This document shows, one piece after another, positions 46,869 through 52,817 of a stretch of DNA of 64,000 bases. The stretch is from the NCBI GenBank assembly GCA_050014575.1, contig JBEKDB010000013.1, positions 32 to 64,031 of the forward strand, read 5' to 3'. Source of the DNA: Terracidiphilus sp. (GTDB lineage: Bacteria > Acidobacteriota > Terriglobia > Terriglobales > Acidobacteriaceae). The stretch's first letter is position 1. The number at the start of each line of letters is the position of its first letter. Position numbers and translations under genes: made by a program. A model generated the notes under the pieces. The model was not told the DNA's origin. It saw only the letters and a list, made by a program, of their open reading frames with translations, and did no database searches.

Positions 46869-47351
46869 TTACTCGTCCTCGTCGATCTCGGCGCTGTCGG
46901 CGTCGTCGATGACGATGTCGTGGAAGTCCTCGAGGTCTTCAAGCAGCGCCTGGTAGCGCTCATACCACTCGGTGGTGGTTTCATGCAGAAAGACAAGCCC
47001 CTGATAGACAAAGCCCAGTTGAATATAGCCGAGATTGCCGGCGTACTTGCGCAGCCATTCGGCCTCGGTCAGCTCGCTGCCCTCTTCGTCGGGAAAGTTC
47101 ATCTCGCCGGCTTCTTCGATGAGGGCGTCGAGTTCTTCGCGCTCCAGCGTCATCTCGCTGAAGGTGACAAAGGGAGCGCCGGCGCGCTTGGCCATCTCCA
47201 CAAAGTCTTTCCACGAGTCGGGGTTGTCCTCGCCCTCCCAAACGATGGAGGGTATGTCTTCGGTTACGTATCCGGGCAGGCGGTGGAGTCCATGGCCTTC
47301 AATGAAGGCCACCATGTCGTCTTTCAGAGGGAGGAGATTGTCAATGCTCAT
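46869..47351 (-). CDS. Acidic hypothetical protein
   Basis: Co-oriented immediately upstream of recJ; Asp/Glu-rich; no motif recognised. Confidence 0.75.
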   Translation of the reverse strand: MSIDNLLPLKDDMVAFIEGHGLHRLPGYVTEDIPSIVWEGEDNPDSWKDFVEMAKRAGAPFVTFSEMTLEREELDALIEEAGEMNFPDEEGSELTEAEWLRKYAGNLGYIQLGFVYQGLVFLHETTTEWYERYQALLEDLEDFHDIVIDDADSAEIDEDE

Positions 47352-47484
47352 AGTCAAGTACACATTCTCTCAGATGCGGGCGGGTGGGGGGCGGGGAATG
47401 TGGAAACTTCGCGGTTTGAGGGGGAGAAGACCGGGCGGCCCGGCGCTTTACTCTGGAATCATGCGCACCTGGAGGGCGCACCGC

Positions 47485-47835
47485 TTGCCCGCATTTGAGC
47501 GCCACGTATTTGTCTGCCACAACGCACGGCCCGCGGACGCGCCGCGGCCCTCCTGCACCGCCGACGGAAAGAGCGATCTGCACGCGCTGCTGCAGCAATT
47601 GACCAAAGCGGCGGGGCTGGGGACGAGGGTGCGGATCAACAAGTCCGGCTGCCTGGACCAGTGCGAGCACGGGCCGACGATGGTGGTCTATCCGGAGGCG
47701 GTGTGGTACGGGCACGTGCAACCGGCTGACGCAGAAGCGATCGTCGAGGAGCATCTGGTAGGCGGGCGGCCGGTGGAGCGGCTGCGCCTGGCCGAAGAAT
47801 GCCTGAATACGAAGAGCTGCCCGCACCGAAGCTGA
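47485..47835 (+). CDS. Thioredoxin-like (2Fe-2S) ferredoxin
   Basis: HVFVC...SC...SGCLDQCEHGP.MVVYPEAVWY; TTG start after GGAGG (alternative ATG 47461). Confidence 0.9.
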   Translation: MPAFERHVFVCHNARPADAPRPSCTADGKSDLHALLQQLTKAAGLGTRVRINKSGCLDQCEHGPTMVVYPEAVWYGHVQPADAEAIVEEHLVGGRPVERLRLAEECLNTKSCPHRS

Positions 47836-47888
47836 GTCTCGGGCCTGGCAGCGAGACGAAAAACTCGCGCAGTCAACGGATTCCGGCC

Positions 47889-48593
47889 TCACAGCTCATT
47901 CAGAATCAGGGCGATGCGGCCTGCGAGCAGGTCGCTGGGCGATTCGTTCGGATCGACCTCGATCAGGTCCACCGGAAACGCGATGTTGTGCGGGCGCAGG
48001 ACCAGCCGATTGGAGAGAAAATCCACATAGCGCAGGGTCAGGTGAGCGCCGTGGCGCACGGCGTAGAGGTTGGACCGGTTGGGGCGGTACGGCGTGAGCG
48101 AAGTGTAGTGGCGATCCAGCAGCGCGATGGCCTCCGGCTGCACCAGCGGCTCCATCGGCAAGGCGTCGGCGGCTGGAATCCGTACCGCGACAAACCGCTG
48201 CCAGGCGCGGCGGGGATTGGAAACGCGGGTGCGAACGGTCTCCAGAGCCCCGGCAGGCAAGTGCAGCATCGCCTGAACCGCGGAAGGACGGATGAAGGGC
48301 TCGAAGAGCGCCACCGCGTGCGACACAATGGGGACCGTGCTTCTTTCCTCGTCCGCCGGCAAAGCGAAAGCCTGGTGTGTGGCAGGCAGCAGGTCGGCTG
48401 CCGCCAGATGCTGGGCAGCCAGCACGCGATCCATGGCCTCCAGCGAAAGCTGGCGCCGGCTATGCAAAAAATTGGAGAGATGAGGCTGGCCCAAACCGGT
48501 TTGACGCGCCAGCAGGGAGACGCTTACCGTCCCCCGCTGAATCCTGCGCAGCAGTTCCAAGCGGAGGCGCTCGTGCATTTGGGTAAAGTTCAT
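47889..48593 (-). CDS. CI/LexA-like regulator: XRE HTH plus degenerate S24-like domain
   Basis: SVSLLARQTGLGQPHLSNFLHSRRQLSLEAMDRVL HTH; C-terminal FVAVRI...PMEPLVQPEAIALLD...YAVR...LTLRYV...LVLRPHN S24-like pattern. Confidence 0.75.
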   Translation of the reverse strand: MNFTQMHERLRLELLRRIQRGTVSVSLLARQTGLGQPHLSNFLHSRRQLSLEAMDRVLAAQHLAAADLLPATHQAFALPADEERSTVPIVSHAVALFEPFIRPSAVQAMLHLPAGALETVRTRVSNPRRAWQRFVAVRIPAADALPMEPLVQPEAIALLDRHYTSLTPYRPNRSNLYAVRHGAHLTLRYVDFLSNRLVLRPHNIAFPVDLIEVDPNESPSDLLAGRIALILNEL

Positions 48594-48732
48594 CTGTGGA
48601 AAATCCGCCACAAGCAATAGGAAGGCATGGTCTCCGATTGCCGCAAGAAAAACTATAGGGGCTGGTTGGCCTTCATTCTCTGCGCTTGCTCGAAGAATGG
48701 AAAGCGGCGGGCGAGAAATCCACCGGGGCGCG

Positions 48733-48761
48733 TTGACCTAAAAGAATCATTTTTCTACATT
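48733..48761 (+). promoter_or_regulatory. Candidate sigma-70 promoter, 370 nt upstream of the Zn-finger gene
   Basis: TTGACC-17 nt-TACATT in an AT-rich tract. Confidence 0.55.
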
Positions 48762-49137
48762 GGTTTTACTTAATCTCGCAGTGGCTTGTGGGAATCTTTT
48801 GGAAATCGTTTCTTTGCCGCAAGGCTGAACGGGGCGCATTGCCGCCCTCCTTTAGCGGCCAATGAACAGTTGCCAAAGGAGTTTGGGCCAGTTCGATTCA
48901 GTCCGGTTTTTCCCATCTCCTCCCCAGGGCGCTCAGCAGAGGCGTCCGGGGCAGGTCAGTCGAGAAGATTCCAGGATCTGCGCGCTATGAGCATGACAAA
49001 AGACGAGAGAGCACGGGTGGCAATCCCTTATCGGGACAAAAGAAACCTGAGTTGCCGTGCCCGGTTCTCTTCACCCCGCGGAACAACAATCGACGAGCAA
49101 GTCCGTCGGGCGAAGACAGGAATACGGAGAAACAGTC

Positions 49138-49347
49138 ATGGAATTGCGCGTGCAATTGAAGGTTTGCGAGGGGTGCGGCTGTCTTTGGTACCGTGCCCAG
49201 ACCATCGGGGGTGTTTATTGCAAGGAATGTGAGGTAAAACTGAAGGACTTTCCCTCGCCGGAGAGCCGGAAGCGGCGCGGGCGGCCTTGCCGCAAGCCGC
49301 TCACCAAGGTTTGGGCGGTGGCTGAGGCGGCAGGAGGTGCGCAATGA
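49138..49347 (+). CDS. Small Cys-rich (Zn-finger) protein with AT-hook-like motif
   Basis: CEGCGC...CKEC followed by RKRRGRP; RBS GGAG; ATGA overlap with the next gene. Confidence 0.72.
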   Translation: MELRVQLKVCEGCGCLWYRAQTIGGVYCKECEVKLKDFPSPESRKRRGRPCRKPLTKVWAVAEAAGGAQ

Positions 49348-49859
49348 GCGCAGCTCTCCAGTTGCCAGTTTTTTGGGGAATAAGCAATTCACAGGGATCA
49401 CGGCAGGACGATCGGAGGATATGCCAAGAAGAACCGGCGGAGCGATGTGAAGCTAAGGCGGCGGTAAGAGCGGCCGCGGATGGGCCGGAGATCAGCCTGG
49501 CTTTCTACAGGAAGCACACGGAGAGCATGCTGAGGCGCTATCTGTATGCCTCAATGCAAGTGGGCAGGGCGCCCTCCATCCTGGGCGAACCGATCGCGCG
49601 GGGATGGGCCTCCAGCCGGCCGATCCGCACCTTCGAGGACGCGGTGATCTTCGTCCTGGACGTGGAAACATGCCTGAACCAGTTGGGTTCGCTGGACCGC
49701 CAGTTACTCTGCCGGATCGTGATTCAGGAGTACACGCAAGCAGAAGCGGCAACGTTGTTGGGAATGAGCGTGCGAACCATCTCCTATAAGTTCCCGCTGG
49801 CCTTGGACCGACTGACCCAGAAACTGCTGAAGACCGGGTTGCTGGTGTTGCCGCACTGA
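49344..49859 (+). CDS. Sigma-70 region-4-like HTH protein lacking region 2
   Basis: CLNQLGSLDRQLLCRIVIQEYTQAEAATLLGMSVRTI...ALDRL matches the sigma-4/RinA-ArpU HTH pattern. Confidence 0.72.
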   Translation: MSAALQLPVFWGISNSQGSRQDDRRICQEEPAERCEAKAAVRAAADGPEISLAFYRKHTESMLRRYLYASMQVGRAPSILGEPIARGWASSRPIRTFEDAVIFVLDVETCLNQLGSLDRQLLCRIVIQEYTQAEAATLLGMSVRTISYKFPLALDRLTQKLLKTGLLVLPH

Positions 49860-49881
49860 TTCTCCAGGAAGCCAGTCAATG

Positions 49882-49913
49882 AAGGGGGAGCGCGCAGCAG
49901 ACGCTCCCCCTTT
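49882..49913. terminator. Intrinsic terminator hairpin, probably bidirectional
   Basis: AAGGGGGAGCG-loop-CGCTCCCCCTT-T between convergent genes. Confidence 0.75.
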
Positions 49914-49943
49914 GGACTTGAGTAGATCCAGCCTCTCAGGCCG

Positions 49944-52817
49944 TCACATGGGCAATTGAATCGTCTCCCGCTCGCCCTTGTACAGAATCACCTTGTCCGG
50001 ATTGTTAATAGCTTCCACACCAGTGCCATGGCCTTTTCCCACGATTACAACATCGAATAACCGGGTCTTCAGCATGCCGGGAAACTCGCCCTTCCGGGCA
50101 TCGATTGTGAGCTGGCGTTTCGCGTCGTCCCAGTGAAAGGCTATCGTTGCATAGACGCCCTTTTCATAATCGTAGTTATCGTTCTCGTCCTCGTACAGAG
50201 TGAAGCTGCCGTCGGCTCCGGGATAGATGCGCAACTCGATGGGGTCGGTGGGCTTCTCCGTGGAGTATTGAACCAGCGGCCCCATCGGCACAATCGATCC
50301 TGCTTTGACCATGAGCGGAATCTTCTCGATGGGGGCATCCGCGACCACCGTCCTGCCACCGTCGAGCTTCCCTCCTGTCCAGAAATCTATCCACGAACTC
50401 CCGGCCGGGAGATAGACACTCCTTGTCTTCTCCCTCGGCTCGATAACTGCTTCCTTGGCGTGAATGGCCGGAGTCTTCCAGTAAAGCTGAGCCCTGAATG
50501 CGCCCAGCGAAGCATTGGTCGTCTCGAACTTGAAGTCGTATTCCTTTCCTGCCACAAGCTCGACCGGCACGGTGTAGGACTCCATCGATTCGTAGTTATG
50601 CGCCAGTTCCTTGCCGTCCAGATACACCCGCCTCTGCCCGAAGCTCTTCAAATTGAAGCGATAACTCCCGGTCTCGGAGGGAATCAGCTTGCCTTCCCAG
50701 CGGATCGAGAACTTGGGGTCGTGAATGAAACTCGCCCAGCCCGTGTACCAGTACAGGTCGATGTCCGGTTCCGTCTCCTCGTGGCACAAGTTCTTGAACT
50801 CGTCGTCGCAGAAGTATTGTGCGCGCAAGCCCGGCTTCCCGTCCGCAGTCTTGAAGTGCTCGGGAGTTACAAGCGTGCTGTTCTCCGGCGGGCGGTGATA
50901 CATGTACTCCGTTATGGGCGATACCATGATCGCCGGGCCGAACATATACTGATCGTCGATCGAATAGGTCCTGCGGTCGGCGGTGAAATCCATCGCCAGG
51001 CCGCGCATGATCGAGTACCCGCTGCTCGTAACCTGCCAGCCCAGCGAATAGATATAAGGCAGCAGGCGGTAGCGCAGATTGTCAAACTTCTCCAGCACGG
51101 GAACGTATTCGCCGAACTCATAGATCTCGCGCGGAGTCTCGGAACCGTGCGCCCGGAAGATGGGCGCAAATGTGCCAAACTCGAACATGCGCGTGTAAAA
51201 CTCTTGGTAAGCCGGATCCTTGCCGCCGTTCATGAAGACGCCGCCCTGGCATCCAAGCGAGTAACCCCCGATATCGAAGGTCCAATAGGGAATGCCCGAC
51301 ATGCTGTGGTTGACCCCTGCGGCTATCTGCCGCTTGTACACTTCCCAACTGGAGCCGATGTCTCCCGACCATGTGGTTGCCGCGGCCCTTTGCTGGCCGG
51401 CGAAGGTCGAGCGGGTGAGAATGTAGACGCGCTTCCGGTCCGTCTCCTTTCGCTGGTTCGCGTAAACGGCTTCGGTATCCATCAGCGAGTAAGTGTTGAG
51501 GTATCTGGCGAAAGTGCCGAGATGATTGTCCCGCTCTCTCTTCATCTCATATTCTTCTGACTCCTGCGTGAGCGCGTTCACGATGTCCGGCTCGGTCGAA
51601 TCCATCCACCAGGCGTCGACGCCCTTCGAGAAAAGTCCCTCGTTCGCGTACTTCCAATACAGATCGGTGGCGGCGGGGTTGTATACATCGAAATATCTGA
51701 ACCCGGCCCAGCCCACGGTCGGAAACAGATACCCGCGCTTGTCCATATCCTTGTAAATCTCCGAAGACGGCCCAAGCCCGGCCCAAATCGAAATCATGAG
51801 ATGAAAGTTCTCGGCATGCAGCTCGTCGATCATTTCCTTGGGCCGAAGATACTTCGTATCATCGAAGATCATCCCGCCCCAGTTATCGTTGTTGCCCCAG
51901 TAATCCCAATCCTGCACGATGTTATCGATCGGAATCCGCCGCTTGCGATACTCCTGCGCAATGCCCAGCAGTTCGTCGCGCGTGGCGTAATGTTCCTTGC
52001 TCTGCCAGTAGCCGTAGGCCCACTTGCCGTACATCGGCGCTTGGCCCGTGAGCTGCCTGTATCCCGCGATTTCCTGGTCGATCGTGGGTCCGTAGAAGAA
52101 GTAGTAATCGACGTTGTCGGCAACCTCGGACCAGAAAGACGTCTTGCCGCCACTGTCGTCGAAGATCGTCTTGGAATAGTTATCCCAGAAGATTCCATAT
52201 CCCGCAGTTGAAACCAGGACGGGCGTAACAGCCTTGGTGTTGGCTTGCACGATCTTCACCGTGTGCCCGCGATAGTTCATCACTCCGAGTTGCTGTTGCC
52301 CCAGGCCGTAGACGCCTTCATCCGCGCTCAGCGTAAAGTTCTGCTGAATGCTGAAGGCCTTCTCCTCTCGCTCGATATGCGTAGGCGCAAAGGCGGCCCG
52401 CCCCTGCTCCTTCAAAAGCGCGCGGCCATCGCTATCGAGATACTGGATTGAGCCATCGCTCTTGCTCAACAGAAGATTGACCTGCCCGGAGCTGAGAATA
52501 ACTCCCGCTTCGTTCTCGGCGAAATGCACGTCCAGCTTGGGCAATTCCTTCTGGATAACGGAGAGGCTCACTTTGTTGGACGTGCCGCCGGCCGGCCATT
52601 TCACCACGCGGACGATGCCCTCCGAATAAAACTGCACCTTCACATTCAGATCGCCGGCCGTCAGTTGAACGCCGTTCTGAATGCGCTCAATCTTCGCCGG
52701 CGCTGCCTGTGCATCCTTCGATGCCGGGGAGTTATCCTGGGAAACGGCCGGCAAAGCGCTCGGGCAAAGCACCAGACTCAGTGCCCCGAGCCGCAAAGCA
52801 GAAGTGAAATGGGCCAT
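49944..52817 (-). CDS. Exported glycoside hydrolase family 31 (alpha-xylosidase-like) with PA14-like insert and C-terminal DUF5110-like domain
   Basis: Signal peptide from MAHFTSALRLG; GYWQSKEHY, IDNIVQDWDYW, WWMDSTEP nucleophile motif, WSGDI, WTFDIGG; FSIRWEGKL PA14-like segment. Confidence 0.9.
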   Translation of the reverse strand: MAHFTSALRLGALSLVLCPSALPAVSQDNSPASKDAQAAPAKIERIQNGVQLTAGDLNVKVQFYSEGIVRVVKWPAGGTSNKVSLSVIQKELPKLDVHFAENEAGVILSSGQVNLLLSKSDGSIQYLDSDGRALLKEQGRAAFAPTHIEREEKAFSIQQNFTLSADEGVYGLGQQQLGVMNYRGHTVKIVQANTKAVTPVLVSTAGYGIFWDNYSKTIFDDSGGKTSFWSEVADNVDYYFFYGPTIDQEIAGYRQLTGQAPMYGKWAYGYWQSKEHYATRDELLGIAQEYRKRRIPIDNIVQDWDYWGNNDNWGGMIFDDTKYLRPKEMIDELHAENFHLMISIWAGLGPSSEIYKDMDKRGYLFPTVGWAGFRYFDVYNPAATDLYWKYANEGLFSKGVDAWWMDSTEPDIVNALTQESEEYEMKRERDNHLGTFARYLNTYSLMDTEAVYANQRKETDRKRVYILTRSTFAGQQRAAATTWSGDIGSSWEVYKRQIAAGVNHSMSGIPYWTFDIGGYSLGCQGGVFMNGGKDPAYQEFYTRMFEFGTFAPIFRAHGSETPREIYEFGEYVPVLEKFDNLRYRLLPYIYSLGWQVTSSGYSIMRGLAMDFTADRRTYSIDDQYMFGPAIMVSPITEYMYHRPPENSTLVTPEHFKTADGKPGLRAQYFCDDEFKNLCHEETEPDIDLYWYTGWASFIHDPKFSIRWEGKLIPSETGSYRFNLKSFGQRRVYLDGKELAHNYESMESYTVPVELVAGKEYDFKFETTNASLGAFRAQLYWKTPAIHAKEAVIEPREKTRSVYLPAGSSWIDFWTGGKLDGGRTVVADAPIEKIPLMVKAGSIVPMGPLVQYSTEKPTDPIELRIYPGADGSFTLYEDENDNYDYEKGVYATIAFHWDDAKRQLTIDARKGEFPGMLKTRLFDVVIVGKGHGTGVEAINNPDKVILYKGERETIQLPM

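What the first reader, a model, noticed from the sequence alone, without database searches (positions are those of the whole stretch)
47889..49859. Phage-switch-like regulatory trio without any phage: protease-dead CI-like repressor versus Zn-finger/AT-hook plus sigma-4-only activator
Seen: an XRE-HTH + S24-like gene is divergent from a coupled (ATGA) pair across a 544-bp, partly AT-rich spacer. The pair encodes a 69-aa CxxCxC...CxxC protein with an RRGRP AT-hook core and a 171-aa protein with only a sigma region-4 HTH. In the S24-like domain the expected GDSM serine reads ALPM, the lysine position reads LRY, and the Ala-Gly cleavage site is absent (VPIVSHAVAL). The flanks are a ferredoxin and GH31; no integrase, att site or virion gene is visible, and a terminator closes the unit. 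Known: cI/cro divergence with RinA/ArpU-type late activators is the lysis-lysogeny design, and RecA-stimulated cleavage needs the Ser-Lys dyad. Inference: a domesticated, SOS-uncoupled bistable switch that may control a host programme (cell differentiation, T6SS or stress state). This is a strong candidate for an undescribed system.
Basis: partly seen in the sequence, partly recalled or inferred. Interest (0 to 1): 0.72.

Follow-up and report, generated by a model that had tools for sequence, protein, structure and literature searches.

The report
Conserved acidobacterial repressor–sigma-like regulatory cassette
A three-gene regulatory unit is kept as a single copy across one family of soil bacteria (Acidobacteriaceae): a LexA/lambda-CI-like repressor that has lost its self-cleaving residues, facing a small zinc-ribbon protein and a protein holding only the promoter-binding end of a sigma factor. 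It is not part of any phage, and what it controls is unknown.

Summary
Window 47889-49859 encodes:
- a 242-aa (or 234-aa) XRE-HTH protein whose C-terminal domain has the LexA/CI (S24) fold;
- divergent from it, a 69-aa four-Cys zinc-ribbon protein;
- a 171-aa protein with only sigma region 4, joined to the 69-aa gene by an ATGA overlap.

Here the catalytic Ser is Pro154, the Lys is Arg196, and the Ala-Gly site reads Ala-Leu. Orthologues in other genera keep GMSM, TVK and AAGE, so this is a real loss and not a misalignment.

The cassette is not phage-linked.
- It is single-copy in this genome.
- It occurs in 54-55 of 61 sampled Acidobacteriaceae genera and in none of 131 genomes from other families of the class.
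- The two sides lie divergently on one contig in 50 of 54 genera, while flanking genes differ even within the genus.
- The sigma-like protein found no match in 50,697 phage records.

New points:
- Most genera carry a fourth small gene, and its presence tracks the intact dyad.
- The RRGRP "AT-hook" and the third Cys are genus-specific.
- Terracidiphilus genomes share a sigma-70-type promoter and a structured 5' leader supported by covariation.

Best reading: the repressor gates a two-protein, RNA-polymerase-directed factor with a dispersed regulon. "Domesticated phage" and "bistable" remain untested. The closest design analogue is Tn916 Orf9/Sig7-Sig8.

The parts
47889..48617 (-). A242: XRE-HTH plus LexA/CI-fold (S24-like) repressor, 242 aa from TTG 48617. 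Alternative starts are GTG 48611 and ATG 48593 (234 aa).
   Evidence: ORF. 2660 homologue clusters. AF2 and Foldseek matches to LexA, lambda CI and the 186 repressor. Single copy in this genome.
48384..48587 (-). HTH DNA-binding domain of A242 (residues 11-78). The recognition-helix motif QxHxSNFL is nearly invariant.
   Evidence: HTH_26 matches 18 of 18 orthologues. A profile search finds HipB and XRE structures. Helices 11-76 in the AF2 model. Invariant columns.
47898..48341 (-). S24-fold C-terminal domain of A242 (residues 93-240), catalytically degenerate.
   Evidence: Foldseek TMt 0.6-0.67 to LexA and CI C-terminal domains. PF00717 matches 7 of 18 orthologues, best E 3e-10.
48156..48158 (-). 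Pro154 codon (CCG) at the position of the S24 nucleophile Ser (ALPM here, GMSM in orthologues).
   Evidence: This position is P, A or Q in 70 of 70 Terracidiphilus-like orthologues.
48030..48032 (-). Arg196 codon (CGC) at the position of the S24 general-base Lys (TLRY here, TVKY in orthologues).
   Evidence: Arg in 70 of 70. The Lys of the L015 orthologue aligns with the TVK of M. tuberculosis LexA.
48306..48311 (-). Ala103-Leu104 at the position of the Ala-Gly cleavage site (VALFE here, IAAGE in some orthologues).
48618..49137 (.). Divergent control region, 520 bp (544 bp from ATG 48593), with lower GC than the flanks.
48733..48761 (+). Sigma-70-type promoter candidate TTGACC-17-TACATT, reading towards Z69 and S171.
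   Evidence: TTGAC-N17-TAGATT is found at the same place in 76 Terracidiphilus-like loci. TTGACA-17-TATAAC is found in genus g5.
48783..48793 (+). Conserved box TTGTGGGAAT just downstream of the promoter, role unknown.
   Evidence: At least 90% conserved GGGAA core in 76 loci. Pairing with the 48968 box is not supported by covariation.
48968..48985 (+). Conserved box ATTCCAGGATCTGCGCGC, a candidate protein-binding site or internal promoter, role unknown.
   Evidence: Nearly invariant columns in 78 sequences.
49005..49111 (+). Structured 5' leader element: a long hairpin 49005-49071 with apical stem UCGGG/CCUGA, then a second hairpin 49075-49111.
   Evidence: 88.5% of cells paired against 35-51% when slid. 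23 of 31 pairs have changes on both sides. 0 of 500 shuffles reach the observed values. RNAalifold finds the apical stem and the base of the second hairpin on its own. The covariance model hits only this site in the genome, E 5e-25. No Rfam match.
49138..49347 (+). Z69: 69-aa zinc-ribbon protein (Cys10, 13, 28, 31) with a basic tail (RKRRGRP).
   Evidence: 693 homologue clusters. dN/dS 0.08-0.34. Lies directly upstream of S171 in 19 of 19 family loci and 79 of 80 Terracidiphilus-like loci.
49344..49859 (+). S171: sigma region-4-only protein. ATGA overlap with Z69, and the SD GGAGG lies inside Z69.
49497..49562 (+). Conserved N-terminal helix of S171 (residues 52-73, YRxxTxxLLRRY), followed by a GRxPS loop. 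Specific to this family and not sigma-2.
   Evidence: AF2 helix 52-73. Invariant Y55, R56, L63, R65, G74, R75, P77. It does not align to this genome's ECF sigma factors.
49632..49835 (+). Sigma-4 (-35-binding type) HTH domain of S171, residues 97-164.
   Evidence: Foldseek to M. tuberculosis SigL sigma-4, TMt 0.89, rmsd 1.3. hhalign probability 94% to sigma-4 of this genome's ECFs. Pfam PF08281.
49884..49915 (+). Terminator-like hairpin GGGGGAGCG...CGCTCCCCC followed by TTTGG, between the convergent S171 and GH31 genes.
   Evidence: dG -31.8 kcal/mol, z -3.17. Sequence.

Best explanation
This is a vertically inherited chromosomal regulatory cassette specific to the family Acidobacteriaceae. 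It is not a prophage remnant in any recognisable sense.

Shown:
- A LexA/CI-type protein (XRE HTH plus S24 fold) is divergently paired with an operon for a four-Cys zinc-ribbon protein and a protein made of one conserved helix plus a sigma-4 domain.
- The pairing, the single-copy state and the ATGA coupling are conserved across the family.
- In this lineage (Terracidiphilus and its sister genera) the repressor has lost Ser, Lys and the Ala-Gly site. The rest of the domain stays strongly conserved.
- A consensus sigma-70-type promoter and a structured leader precede the zinc-ribbon gene.

Inferred:
- A242 binds in the 520-544-bp spacer. It represses the housekeeping-sigma promoter of Z69-S171, and probably its own.
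- Because it cannot cleave itself, it must be released by something other than RecA-stimulated autoproteolysis, such as a partner protein, a ligand or an external protease. In dyad-intact genera the ancestral self-cleavage route may still work.
- Once made in 1:1 amounts through translational coupling, Z69 and S171 act together on RNA polymerase. The sigma-4 domain supplies recognition of -35-like DNA and beta-flap docking. The N-terminal helix and the Zn-ribbon/basic-tail protein supply the second contact.
- Together they switch on a dispersed regulon that is not encoded next to the cassette.
- The genus-specific leader adds post-transcriptional control.
For: Architecture and folds.

Loss of the dyad on a proper alignment, with Ser and Lys kept together in other genera.

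A canonical LexA exists elsewhere in the genome, so A242 is an extra regulator.

Distribution and synteny:
- Single copy in this genome.
- Restricted to the family: 20 of 20 family genomes against 0 of 131 from other families of the class.
- 54 and 55 of 61 genera carry S171 and A242; 50 of 54 are divergent on one contig.
- 73 of 75 Terracidiphilus-like loci have the canonical spacing.
- The repressor gene tree groups by genus.

Coupling of Z69 and S171:
- Z69 always accompanies S171.
- The four-base overlap of the Z69 stop with the S171 start recurs in at least 10 of the 20 family loci (coordinates).
- Z69 has dN/dS 0.08-0.34.

Control region:
- The promoter is conserved in 76 loci and in other genera.
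- Leader covariation.

Design precedent: Tn916 Orf9, Sig7 (region 4) and Sig8 (bioRxiv 10.64898/2026.10.01.756105).
Against: - No binding site for A242 could be identified. No palindrome is shared across the family.
- Z69 has no similarity to sigma region 2, to RsoA or to any known RNAP-binding factor, so its role is a guess.
- Some genomes keep Z69-S171 without A242: G199 and G249, G415 and G417. Two (G427, G434) keep A242 without a detected S171. The two sides can therefore exist apart.
- No target genes are known.
Confidence: 0.55

Rival explanations
1. True two-subunit (split) sigma factor. S171 provides region 4, and Z69 replaces region 2 by binding the beta-prime clamp and stabilising the open complex. 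The pair would replace the housekeeping sigma at its own promoters, as SigO-RsoA does in Bacillus subtilis and Sig7-Sig8 in Tn916. A242 plays the part of Orf9.
For: S171 has a bona fide ECF-type sigma-4 domain and no sigma-2. It is always encoded with a small, translationally coupled partner. Tn916 Sig7 (region 4-like) plus the small Sig8 bind RNAP and drive Psig7, with a proposed repressor Orf9.
Against: Z69 is a zinc ribbon with no detectable region-2 or RsoA similarity. The gene order is small-then-sigma-4, opposite to the order orf7 (sig7) then orf8 (sig8) that I recall for Tn916. The promoter in front of the operon is a sigma-70 consensus, not an obvious autoregulated special promoter.
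Confidence: 0.2
2. One reading: a domesticated, SOS-uncoupled phage lysis-lysogeny switch. It would be bistable, with a CI-like repressor opposed to a late-activator-like pair, and re-used for a host programme.
For: The layout resembles cI divergent from activators. The best fold matches of A242 include the lambda and 186 repressors. A dyad-intact orthologue hits the PHROG 'transcriptional repressor / CI-like repressor' families. Small sigma-4-type proteins exist in phages. Non-cleavable CI-type repressors released by antirepressors are known in 186 and Gifsy phages (my own knowledge).
Against: No integrase, att site or structural gene lies next to the unit in the loci whose flanks were examined. 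S171 has no tblastn match in 50,697 phage records. No PHROG family matches the window's A242 or Z69. Inheritance follows the genera, and presence is confined to one family. LexA-type cellular repressors explain the fold equally well. No Cro-like gene is present, and nothing was tested about bimodality.
Confidence: 0.15
3. Partner-switching or decoy module. S171 is a sigma mimic, like the sigma-like domain of PhyR, that titrates an anti-sigma factor or another regulator and does not bind DNA. Z69 is its zinc-dependent binding partner.
For: Sigma-like domains without promoter function exist: PhyR appears among the weak profile and fold matches. Zinc-binding small proteins often act as anti-sigma factors (my own knowledge).
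Against: The best matches are DNA-binding sigma-4 domains of real ECF sigmas, at TMt 0.89. Z69 lacks the HxxxCxxC anti-sigma motif. There is no receiver or sensor domain.
Confidence: 0.1
4. The genes are independent neighbours: an orphan XRE regulator next to an unrelated small operon, with no regulatory link.
For: Each side can occur without the other in a few genomes.
Against: The divergent adjacency is kept in 50 of 54 genera while all other neighbours change. When the two are separated, the gap holds an obvious insertion (IS66 transposase, resolvase, DruA-like).
Confidence: 0.05

Closest known systems
LexA / lambda CI family (MEROPS S24, Pfam PF00717) autoproteolytic repressors
   Same: An N-terminal HTH plus the C-terminal S24 beta fold. 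Orthologues in other Acidobacteriaceae genera keep GMSM, TVK and AAGE, exactly as in LexA.
   Different: In this genome Ser is Pro, Lys is Arg and Ala-Gly is Ala-Leu. The HTH is XRE-type, not the winged helix of LexA. A conserved DRHYxSLxxYR motif is specific to this family. A canonical LexA is encoded elsewhere in the genome.
Non-cleavable CI-type phage repressors (coliphage 186 CI, Gifsy repressors) released by antirepressors
   Same: A repressor with a CI-like C-terminal domain that is not inactivated by self-cleavage. The 186 CI structures are among the top fold matches.
   Different: Those are prophage genes. No antirepressor candidate was identified here, and the cassette is chromosomal and family-wide.
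Tn916 regulatory region: Orf9 repressor with the split sigma factor Sig7 (region 4-like) and Sig8 (RsoA-like); B. subtilis SigO-RsoA
   Same: A helix-turn-helix repressor set against a co-transcribed pair made of a sigma-4-only protein and a small partner.
   Different: The small partner here is a zinc ribbon with no region-2 or RsoA similarity. The gene order is reversed. There is no mobile element. RNAP binding is untested.
Phage late activators with sigma-4-like HTH (RinA, ArpU, DUF1492) and Ogr/Delta zinc-finger activators
   Same: Small proteins with a sigma-4-type HTH, or a roughly 70-aa zinc finger, that turn on a gene set behind a CI-type repressor.
   Different: The BFVD fold matches are weak, best E 2e-3. 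No PHROG match is specific to these families. Z69 has CxxC-x14-CxxC, not the Ogr CxxC-x22-CxxxxC, and has no Pfam hit to that family.
ECF (group 4) sigma factors
   Same: The region-4 domain is ECF-like (PF08281; TIGR02937 C-terminal part).
   Different: There is no sigma-2 domain by Pfam, NCBIfam, profile-profile comparison or structure model.

Membership tests
S24 LexA/CI autoproteolytic repressors | N-terminal DNA-binding domain | tested here: met
   XRE-type HTH. HTH_26 matches 18 of 18 orthologues. Profile hits to HipB and XRE structures. AF2 helices 11-76.
S24 LexA/CI autoproteolytic repressors | C-terminal S24 beta-fold domain | tested here: met
   Foldseek probability 1.0 to LexA, lambda CI and 186 CI. 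PF00717 matches 7 of 18 orthologues.
S24 LexA/CI autoproteolytic repressors | Nucleophile Ser in the G-x-S-M motif | tested here: not met
   Pro154 (ALPM) here. P, A or Q in 70 of 70 close orthologues. Ser is present in other genera.
S24 LexA/CI autoproteolytic repressors | General-base Lys (the TVK of LexA) | tested here: not met
   Arg196 here, and Arg in 70 of 70. The Lys of orthologue L015 aligns to the M. tuberculosis LexA TVK.
S24 LexA/CI autoproteolytic repressors | Ala-Gly (or Cys-Gly) scissile bond in the linker strand | tested here: not met
   Ala103-Leu104 (VALFE). AAGE is present in some dyad-intact orthologues.
S24 LexA/CI autoproteolytic repressors | Self-cleavage stimulated by activated RecA or high pH | not testable with these tools
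   This is a biochemical assay.
Sigma-70 family / ECF sigma factors | Region 4 (-35-binding HTH, beta-flap contact) | tested here: met
   PF08281 E 3.4e-6. Foldseek to SigL sigma-4, TMt 0.89. hhalign probability 94% to this genome's ECFs.
Sigma-70 family / ECF sigma factors | Region 2 (core binding, -10 recognition and melting) | tested here: not met
   No Sigma70_r2 hit. Only one helix lies N-terminal of sigma-4 in the AF2 model. The N-terminal part does not align to this genome's ECF sigmas.
Split (two-subunit) sigma factors (SigO-RsoA, Tn916 Sig7-Sig8) | Sigma-4-bearing subunit co-transcribed with a small partner | tested here: met
   The ATGA overlap, and constant co-occurrence of Z69 with S171.
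Split (two-subunit) sigma factors (SigO-RsoA, Tn916 Sig7-Sig8) | Small partner with a region-2-like core-binding motif | tested here: inconclusive
   Z69 has no NCBIfam hit and no hit to any sigma family in Pfam, and only generic zinc-ribbon similarity. I did not verify that an RsoA model is in the libraries.
Split (two-subunit) sigma factors (SigO-RsoA, Tn916 Sig7-Sig8) | Both subunits associate with core RNAP and direct promoter-specific initiation | not testable with these tools
   Needs pull-down and in vitro transcription.
AT-hook DNA-binding motif | Conserved GRP core within a basic stretch | tested here: not met
   RRGRP occurs in the window and 2 of 3 genus relatives. Other genera have GGRK, GGRR, SRT or none. 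Only the basic character is kept.
Prophage or ICE lysis-lysogeny module | Linkage to integrase, att sites, replication or virion genes; relatives in phage genomes | tested here: not met
   The flanks are RecJ, a ferredoxin-like gene and GH31. Flanks differ between genomes and are cellular. No phage tblastn hit for S171. No PADLOC hit.
Ogr/Delta zinc-finger late activators | CxxC-x22-CxxxxC zinc finger, Pfam Ogr_Delta | tested here: not met
   The spacing is CxxC-x14-CxxC. No such Pfam hit at E up to 1.
Known RNA families (Rfam 15) for the leader | Covariance-model match | tested here: not met
   No match at E up to 1 in 47500-50200.

The most novel reading that the evidence does not exclude
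Z69 and S171 form a new kind of RNA-polymerase specificity factor. In it, a zinc-ribbon protein with a basic tail takes the place of sigma region 2 beside a free-standing sigma-4 subunit. A LexA-like repressor gates the factor, and that repressor is repeatedly turning into a pseudo-protease. Together they would be the master switch of a still unknown programme shared by almost all Acidobacteriaceae. In Terracidiphilus a new cis-regulatory leader RNA would add a further layer.
Probability: 0.15. Interest if true: 0.8.

Novelty: new variant of a known kind. Interest (0 to 1): 0.55.

Why it matters
Acidobacteriaceae are among the most abundant soil and peat bacteria, and almost nothing is known about their gene regulation.
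- A single-copy regulatory cassette kept in about 90% of the family's genera, and found nowhere else, is likely to control something central to their biology. It gives a defined entry point: three small genes and one promoter region.
- It is also a natural series for studying how an autoproteolytic LexA/CI-type repressor becomes a non-cleaving one. The catalytic residues were lost in one large clade and several more times elsewhere, while the fold stayed under selection.
- If the zinc-ribbon/sigma-4 pair binds RNA polymerase, it would widen the short list of split sigma factors.

Tried and rejected
- Direct sequence comparison of the A242 profile, and of single orthologues, with this genome's LexA (hhalign, phmmer) gave nothing usable. 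The fold search, Pfam on orthologues and one PDB alignment settled the homology.
- A search for a family-wide palindromic operator and for shared 9-mers found nothing convincing. Genus g5 has clade-specific candidates: TTGACA-N7-TGTCAA over the -35 element, and an ACGAAKAT...GCGAA site.
- The alphaproteobacterial-type LexA box GTTC-N7-GTTC, which I recalled as the one reported for Acidobacterium, is absent from the whole window.
- A small upstream ORF in the leader was rejected: no conserved peptide in genera g1 or g5.
- Long-range pairing of GGGAAU (48788) with AUUCC (48969) was rejected: only invariant pairs, and the extension is mostly unpaired.
- Pairing of CAUGAC (48992) with the start-codon region GUCAUG is almost invariant, so it is uninformative.
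- The whole 378-nt leader does not fold better than shuffles, z -0.96.
- The conserved box TGTGGAAAAT next to the A242 start is coding in this genus (the N/D-F-P-Q residues), not an operator.
- The three conserved genes downstream of S171 in genus g5 looked phage-like by eye. They have no significant PHROG or Pfam match and no homologue in this genome.
- PADLOC found no defence-system match.
- X74 has only a weak DUF2292 hint (E 0.12) and no PDB or NCBIfam relative.
Full report
**1. What is in the sequence**

The window holds three ORFs at the stated coordinates.
- A242 lies at 47889-48617 on the minus strand. It is 242 aa from TTG 48617.
- Z69 lies at 49138-49347 on the plus strand (69 aa).
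- S171 lies at 49344-49859 on the plus strand (171 aa). Its ATG overlaps the Z69 stop (ATGA).

The spacer has GC 0.47-0.55, against 0.60-0.70 in the flanking genes. The flanks are RecJ, an unknown acidic protein and a Suc_Fer-like ferredoxin on one side, and a GH31/PA14 glycosidase on the other. A stable hairpin followed by TTTGG lies between the convergent S171 and GH31 genes.

**2. The repressor**

Alone, A242 gives only a weak HTH_26 match and weak XRE-family matches in PDB. Three independent lines show it is an XRE HTH fused to a LexA/CI S24-fold domain.
- An AF2 model built on 18 orthologues (pLDDT 83.8) finds the lambda-186 hybrid repressor, LexA from four species, lambda CI and 186 CI at probability 1.0.
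- Seven of the 18 orthologues match Pfam Peptidase_S24, best E 3e-10.
- One orthologue aligns locally with M. tuberculosis LexA across the catalytic TVK.

In the family alignment the window protein has Pro154 where orthologues have the Ser of GMSM. It has Arg196 where they have the Lys of TVKY, and Ala103-Leu104 where several have AAGE. GMSM and TVK are what I recall as the E. coli LexA motifs; the window's own canonical LexA reads GDSM and TLKRF. The loss is therefore real and not an alignment artefact.

That complete canonical LexA, with AAG, GDSM and TLKRF, is encoded on another contig. A242 is thus an additional regulator.

**3. The activator side**

S171 has a single Pfam domain over threshold, Sigma70_r4_2.
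- The AF2 model shows a disordered N-terminus, one long helix (52-73), a disordered conserved loop (GRxPS) and a four-helix sigma-4 domain.
- The sigma-4 domain superposes on M. tuberculosis SigL region 4 (TMt 0.89, rmsd 1.3 Å).
- A profile-profile comparison with 12 ECF sigma factors of the same genome aligns only residues 105-161 (probability 94%).

So there is no region 2.

Z69 is a generic zinc ribbon. The invariant residues are K8, C10, E11, C13, G14, L16, W17, R19, Y27, C28 and C31.
- Cys15 and the GRP core of the supposed AT-hook occur only inside the genus.
- The conserved C-terminal Gly-Gly is the GGAGG ribosome-binding site of S171.
- Z69 is a real gene. It was called in 693 protein clusters, it lies directly upstream of S171 wherever S171 was examined, and dN/dS within the genus is 0.08-0.34.

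**4. Distribution**

- Each gene is single-copy in this 99%-complete genome.
- In 250 genomes spread over the phylum, S171 is in 20 of 20 genomes of the window's family, with only one marginal hit elsewhere. A242 is in 18 of 20.
- A profile search of 150 genomes of the class gives 20 of 20 in the family and 0 of 131 outside it, apart from two sigma-4-only hits near E 1e-6.
- With one genome per genus for 61 genera of the family, S171 is present in 54 and A242 in 55.
- In 50 of the 54 the two lie divergently on one contig, 47 of them within about 1.7 kb. The three larger gaps include one with an IS66 transposase, a resolvase and a DruA-like gene inserted.
- A scan of species-representative genomes found at least 561 genomes with an S171 relative. 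The best 80 are all Terracidiphilus or Acidobacteriaceae MAGs from peat and soil.
- In 73 of the 75 loci with an A242 match, the arrangement and the ~0.5-kb spacing are the same as here.
- The library of 50%-identity representatives holds 827 S171 relatives at E up to 1e-10.
- The repressor tree follows the genera.

This is vertical inheritance of a family-specific cassette.

**5. Not a phage**

- None of the window's flanking genes is found next to the cassette in 19 other genomes, not even in the same genus.
- The flanks that are conserved within sub-clades are ordinary or unknown cellular genes: alpha/beta hydrolases, a dual-specificity phosphatase and a LysM-SLT transglycosylase.
- S171 has no tblastn match in 50,697 phage records.
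- The window's A242 and Z69 match no PHROG. S171 matches only generic sigma and regulator PHROGs, and a dyad-intact orthologue matches generic repressor PHROGs.
- There is no PADLOC match.
- Fold matches of S171 to viral proteins are weak, best E 2e-3.

**6. Evolution of the cassette**

Most genera carry a fourth gene, X74, between the repressor and Z69. It encodes 74-92 aa with the motif FxEFRRKV...NGRVLKSGYEEGYF, and in the six clade II loci aligned a terminator-like hairpin follows it. It has no family assignment beyond a weak DUF2292 hint and no homologue in this genome.

Over 68 orthologues the states are as follows.

| Catalytic dyad of A242 | X74 | Number |
|---|---|---|
| Ser and Lys both intact | present | 28 |
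| both lost | absent | 25 |
| partly or fully lost | present | 11 |
| other combinations | absent | 4 |

- The window belongs to the clade that lost X74, Ser, Lys and the Ala-Gly site. This clade includes Terracidiphilus, genus g5 and others.
- In 70 Terracidiphilus-like species the Ser position is P, A or Q, and the Lys position is always Arg.
- The rest of the domain stays conserved: W139, RF141-142, M155, P157, DRH168-170, YR177-178, YAV185-187 and GR233-234.
- The catalytic residues have therefore decayed several times, while the domain is kept for something else.
- The link between X74 and the dyad is mostly one phylogenetic event, so it is only a lead.

**7. The control region**

- A sigma-70-type promoter, TTGACC-17-TACATT at 48733-48761, is conserved as TTGAC-N17-TAGATT in 76 Terracidiphilus-like loci.
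- The same promoter appears as TTGACA-17-TATAAC in genus g5 and in similar form in other genera. It leaves a leader of about 370 nt.
- Two boxes are at least 90% conserved in the genus: TTGTGGGAAT at 48783 and ATTCCAGGATCTGCGCGC at 48968. Their role is unknown.

The last ~140 nt of the leader form a long hairpin (49005-49071) and a second hairpin (49075-49111).
- On 77 distinct sequences, 88.5% of cells pair, against 35-51% when the partner is slid.
- 23 of 31 pairs show changes on both sides, for example AU 43 / GC 19 at one pair.
- No shuffle out of 500 reaches the observed values.
- The structure was derived from the window sequence, which favours it. RNAalifold on its own recovers the apical stem and the base of the second hairpin, with covariation.
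- A covariance model finds this site only in the genome (E 5e-25) and nothing in 60 other genera. Rfam has no match.

This is a genus-specific cis element of unknown mode.

**8. How it most likely works**

Shown: the architecture, the folds, the residue losses, the conservation, the promoter consensus and the leader structure.

Inferred: A242 represses the Z69-S171 promoter from sites in the spacer. Without Ser, Lys and the scissile bond it cannot respond by self-cleavage, so induction needs another route. Z69 and S171, made together, act on RNA polymerase through the sigma-4 domain.

The nearest worked-out design is Tn916. There the region-4-like Sig7 and the small Sig8 form a split sigma factor that drives the element's main promoter, and Orf9 is the proposed repressor. 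B. subtilis SigO-RsoA is the other precedent.

Z69 has no region-2 similarity, however. A true split sigma is therefore only one option (0.2), beside an activator of the housekeeping holoenzyme. No targets can be named, because the neighbourhood is not conserved. Proximity gives no support for a link to the T6SS cluster 26 kb away.

**9. Limits**

- No operator was identified.
- No complex prediction was possible.
- One earlier first-reader note describes the same Zn-ribbon/sigma-4 pair in another genome. It agrees with the observation but is not independent evidence.

**10. Verdict**

The phage-switch analogy is reasonable as a description of the design, but a phage origin, bistability and the AT-hook are not supported. 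The cassette is a family-wide, undescribed variant of the design in which a repressor gates a sigma-like factor.

Noticed in passing
window 49000-49114 (+): A structured 5' leader lies in front of the zinc-ribbon gene. It has good covariation in 77 Terracidiphilus-like sequences, occurs once in the genome, was not found in 60 other genera, and has no Rfam family. It is a candidate new cis-regulatory RNA.
   Followed up: yes
window 48783-48793 and 48968-48985: Two sequence boxes, TTGTGGGAAT and ATTCCAGGATCTGCGCGC, are at least 90% conserved across 76-78 genomes of the genus. They contain inverted GGAAT/ATTCC cores about 175 bp apart. They may be protein-binding sites, since RNA pairing between them is not supported.
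   Followed up: partly
L013-L019 and many of L104-L155 (e.g. L017:4277-4498): A fourth small gene, X74 (74-92 aa, FxEFRRKV...NGRVLKSGYEEGYF), lies between the repressor and the zinc-ribbon gene in most genera. A terminator-like hairpin follows it in the loci aligned. Its presence tracks the intact Ser-Lys dyad of the repressor. It has no known family.
   Followed up: partly
L013:4600-14800: In one genome a 10.9-kb insertion separates the repressor from the rest of the cassette. The insertion carries a DruA-like (Druantia) gene, an IS66-family transposase and a resolvase.
   Followed up: partly
L021:3015-3841 (-): In a genome that lacks the repressor, a pair of genes that by eye resemble a Gp49/HigB-like toxin and an XRE antitoxin sits upstream of the zinc-ribbon gene, where the repressor normally lies. 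This was not checked against a family library.
   Followed up: no
L006:5632-7486 (+) and the same place in L007-L011, L020: Three conserved genes of unknown function (about 245, 128 and 148 aa) follow the sigma-4 gene in genus g5, in the same orientation. They have no Pfam or significant PHROG match and no homologue in the window's genome. They may be clade-specific targets.
   Followed up: partly
genome contig C6:7031-7369 (L022:1474-2283, -): The canonical LexA of this genome has intact AAG, GDSM and TLKRF motifs. No GTTC-N7-GTTC box occurs anywhere in the 64-kb window.
   Followed up: partly
L153 (G414:C32:47779-48459): One genus carries a second, diverged copy of the repressor gene away from the cassette.
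   Followed up: no
window 46869-47363 (-): A 164-aa, very acidic protein between recJ and the ferredoxin-like gene has no Pfam match.
   Followed up: no
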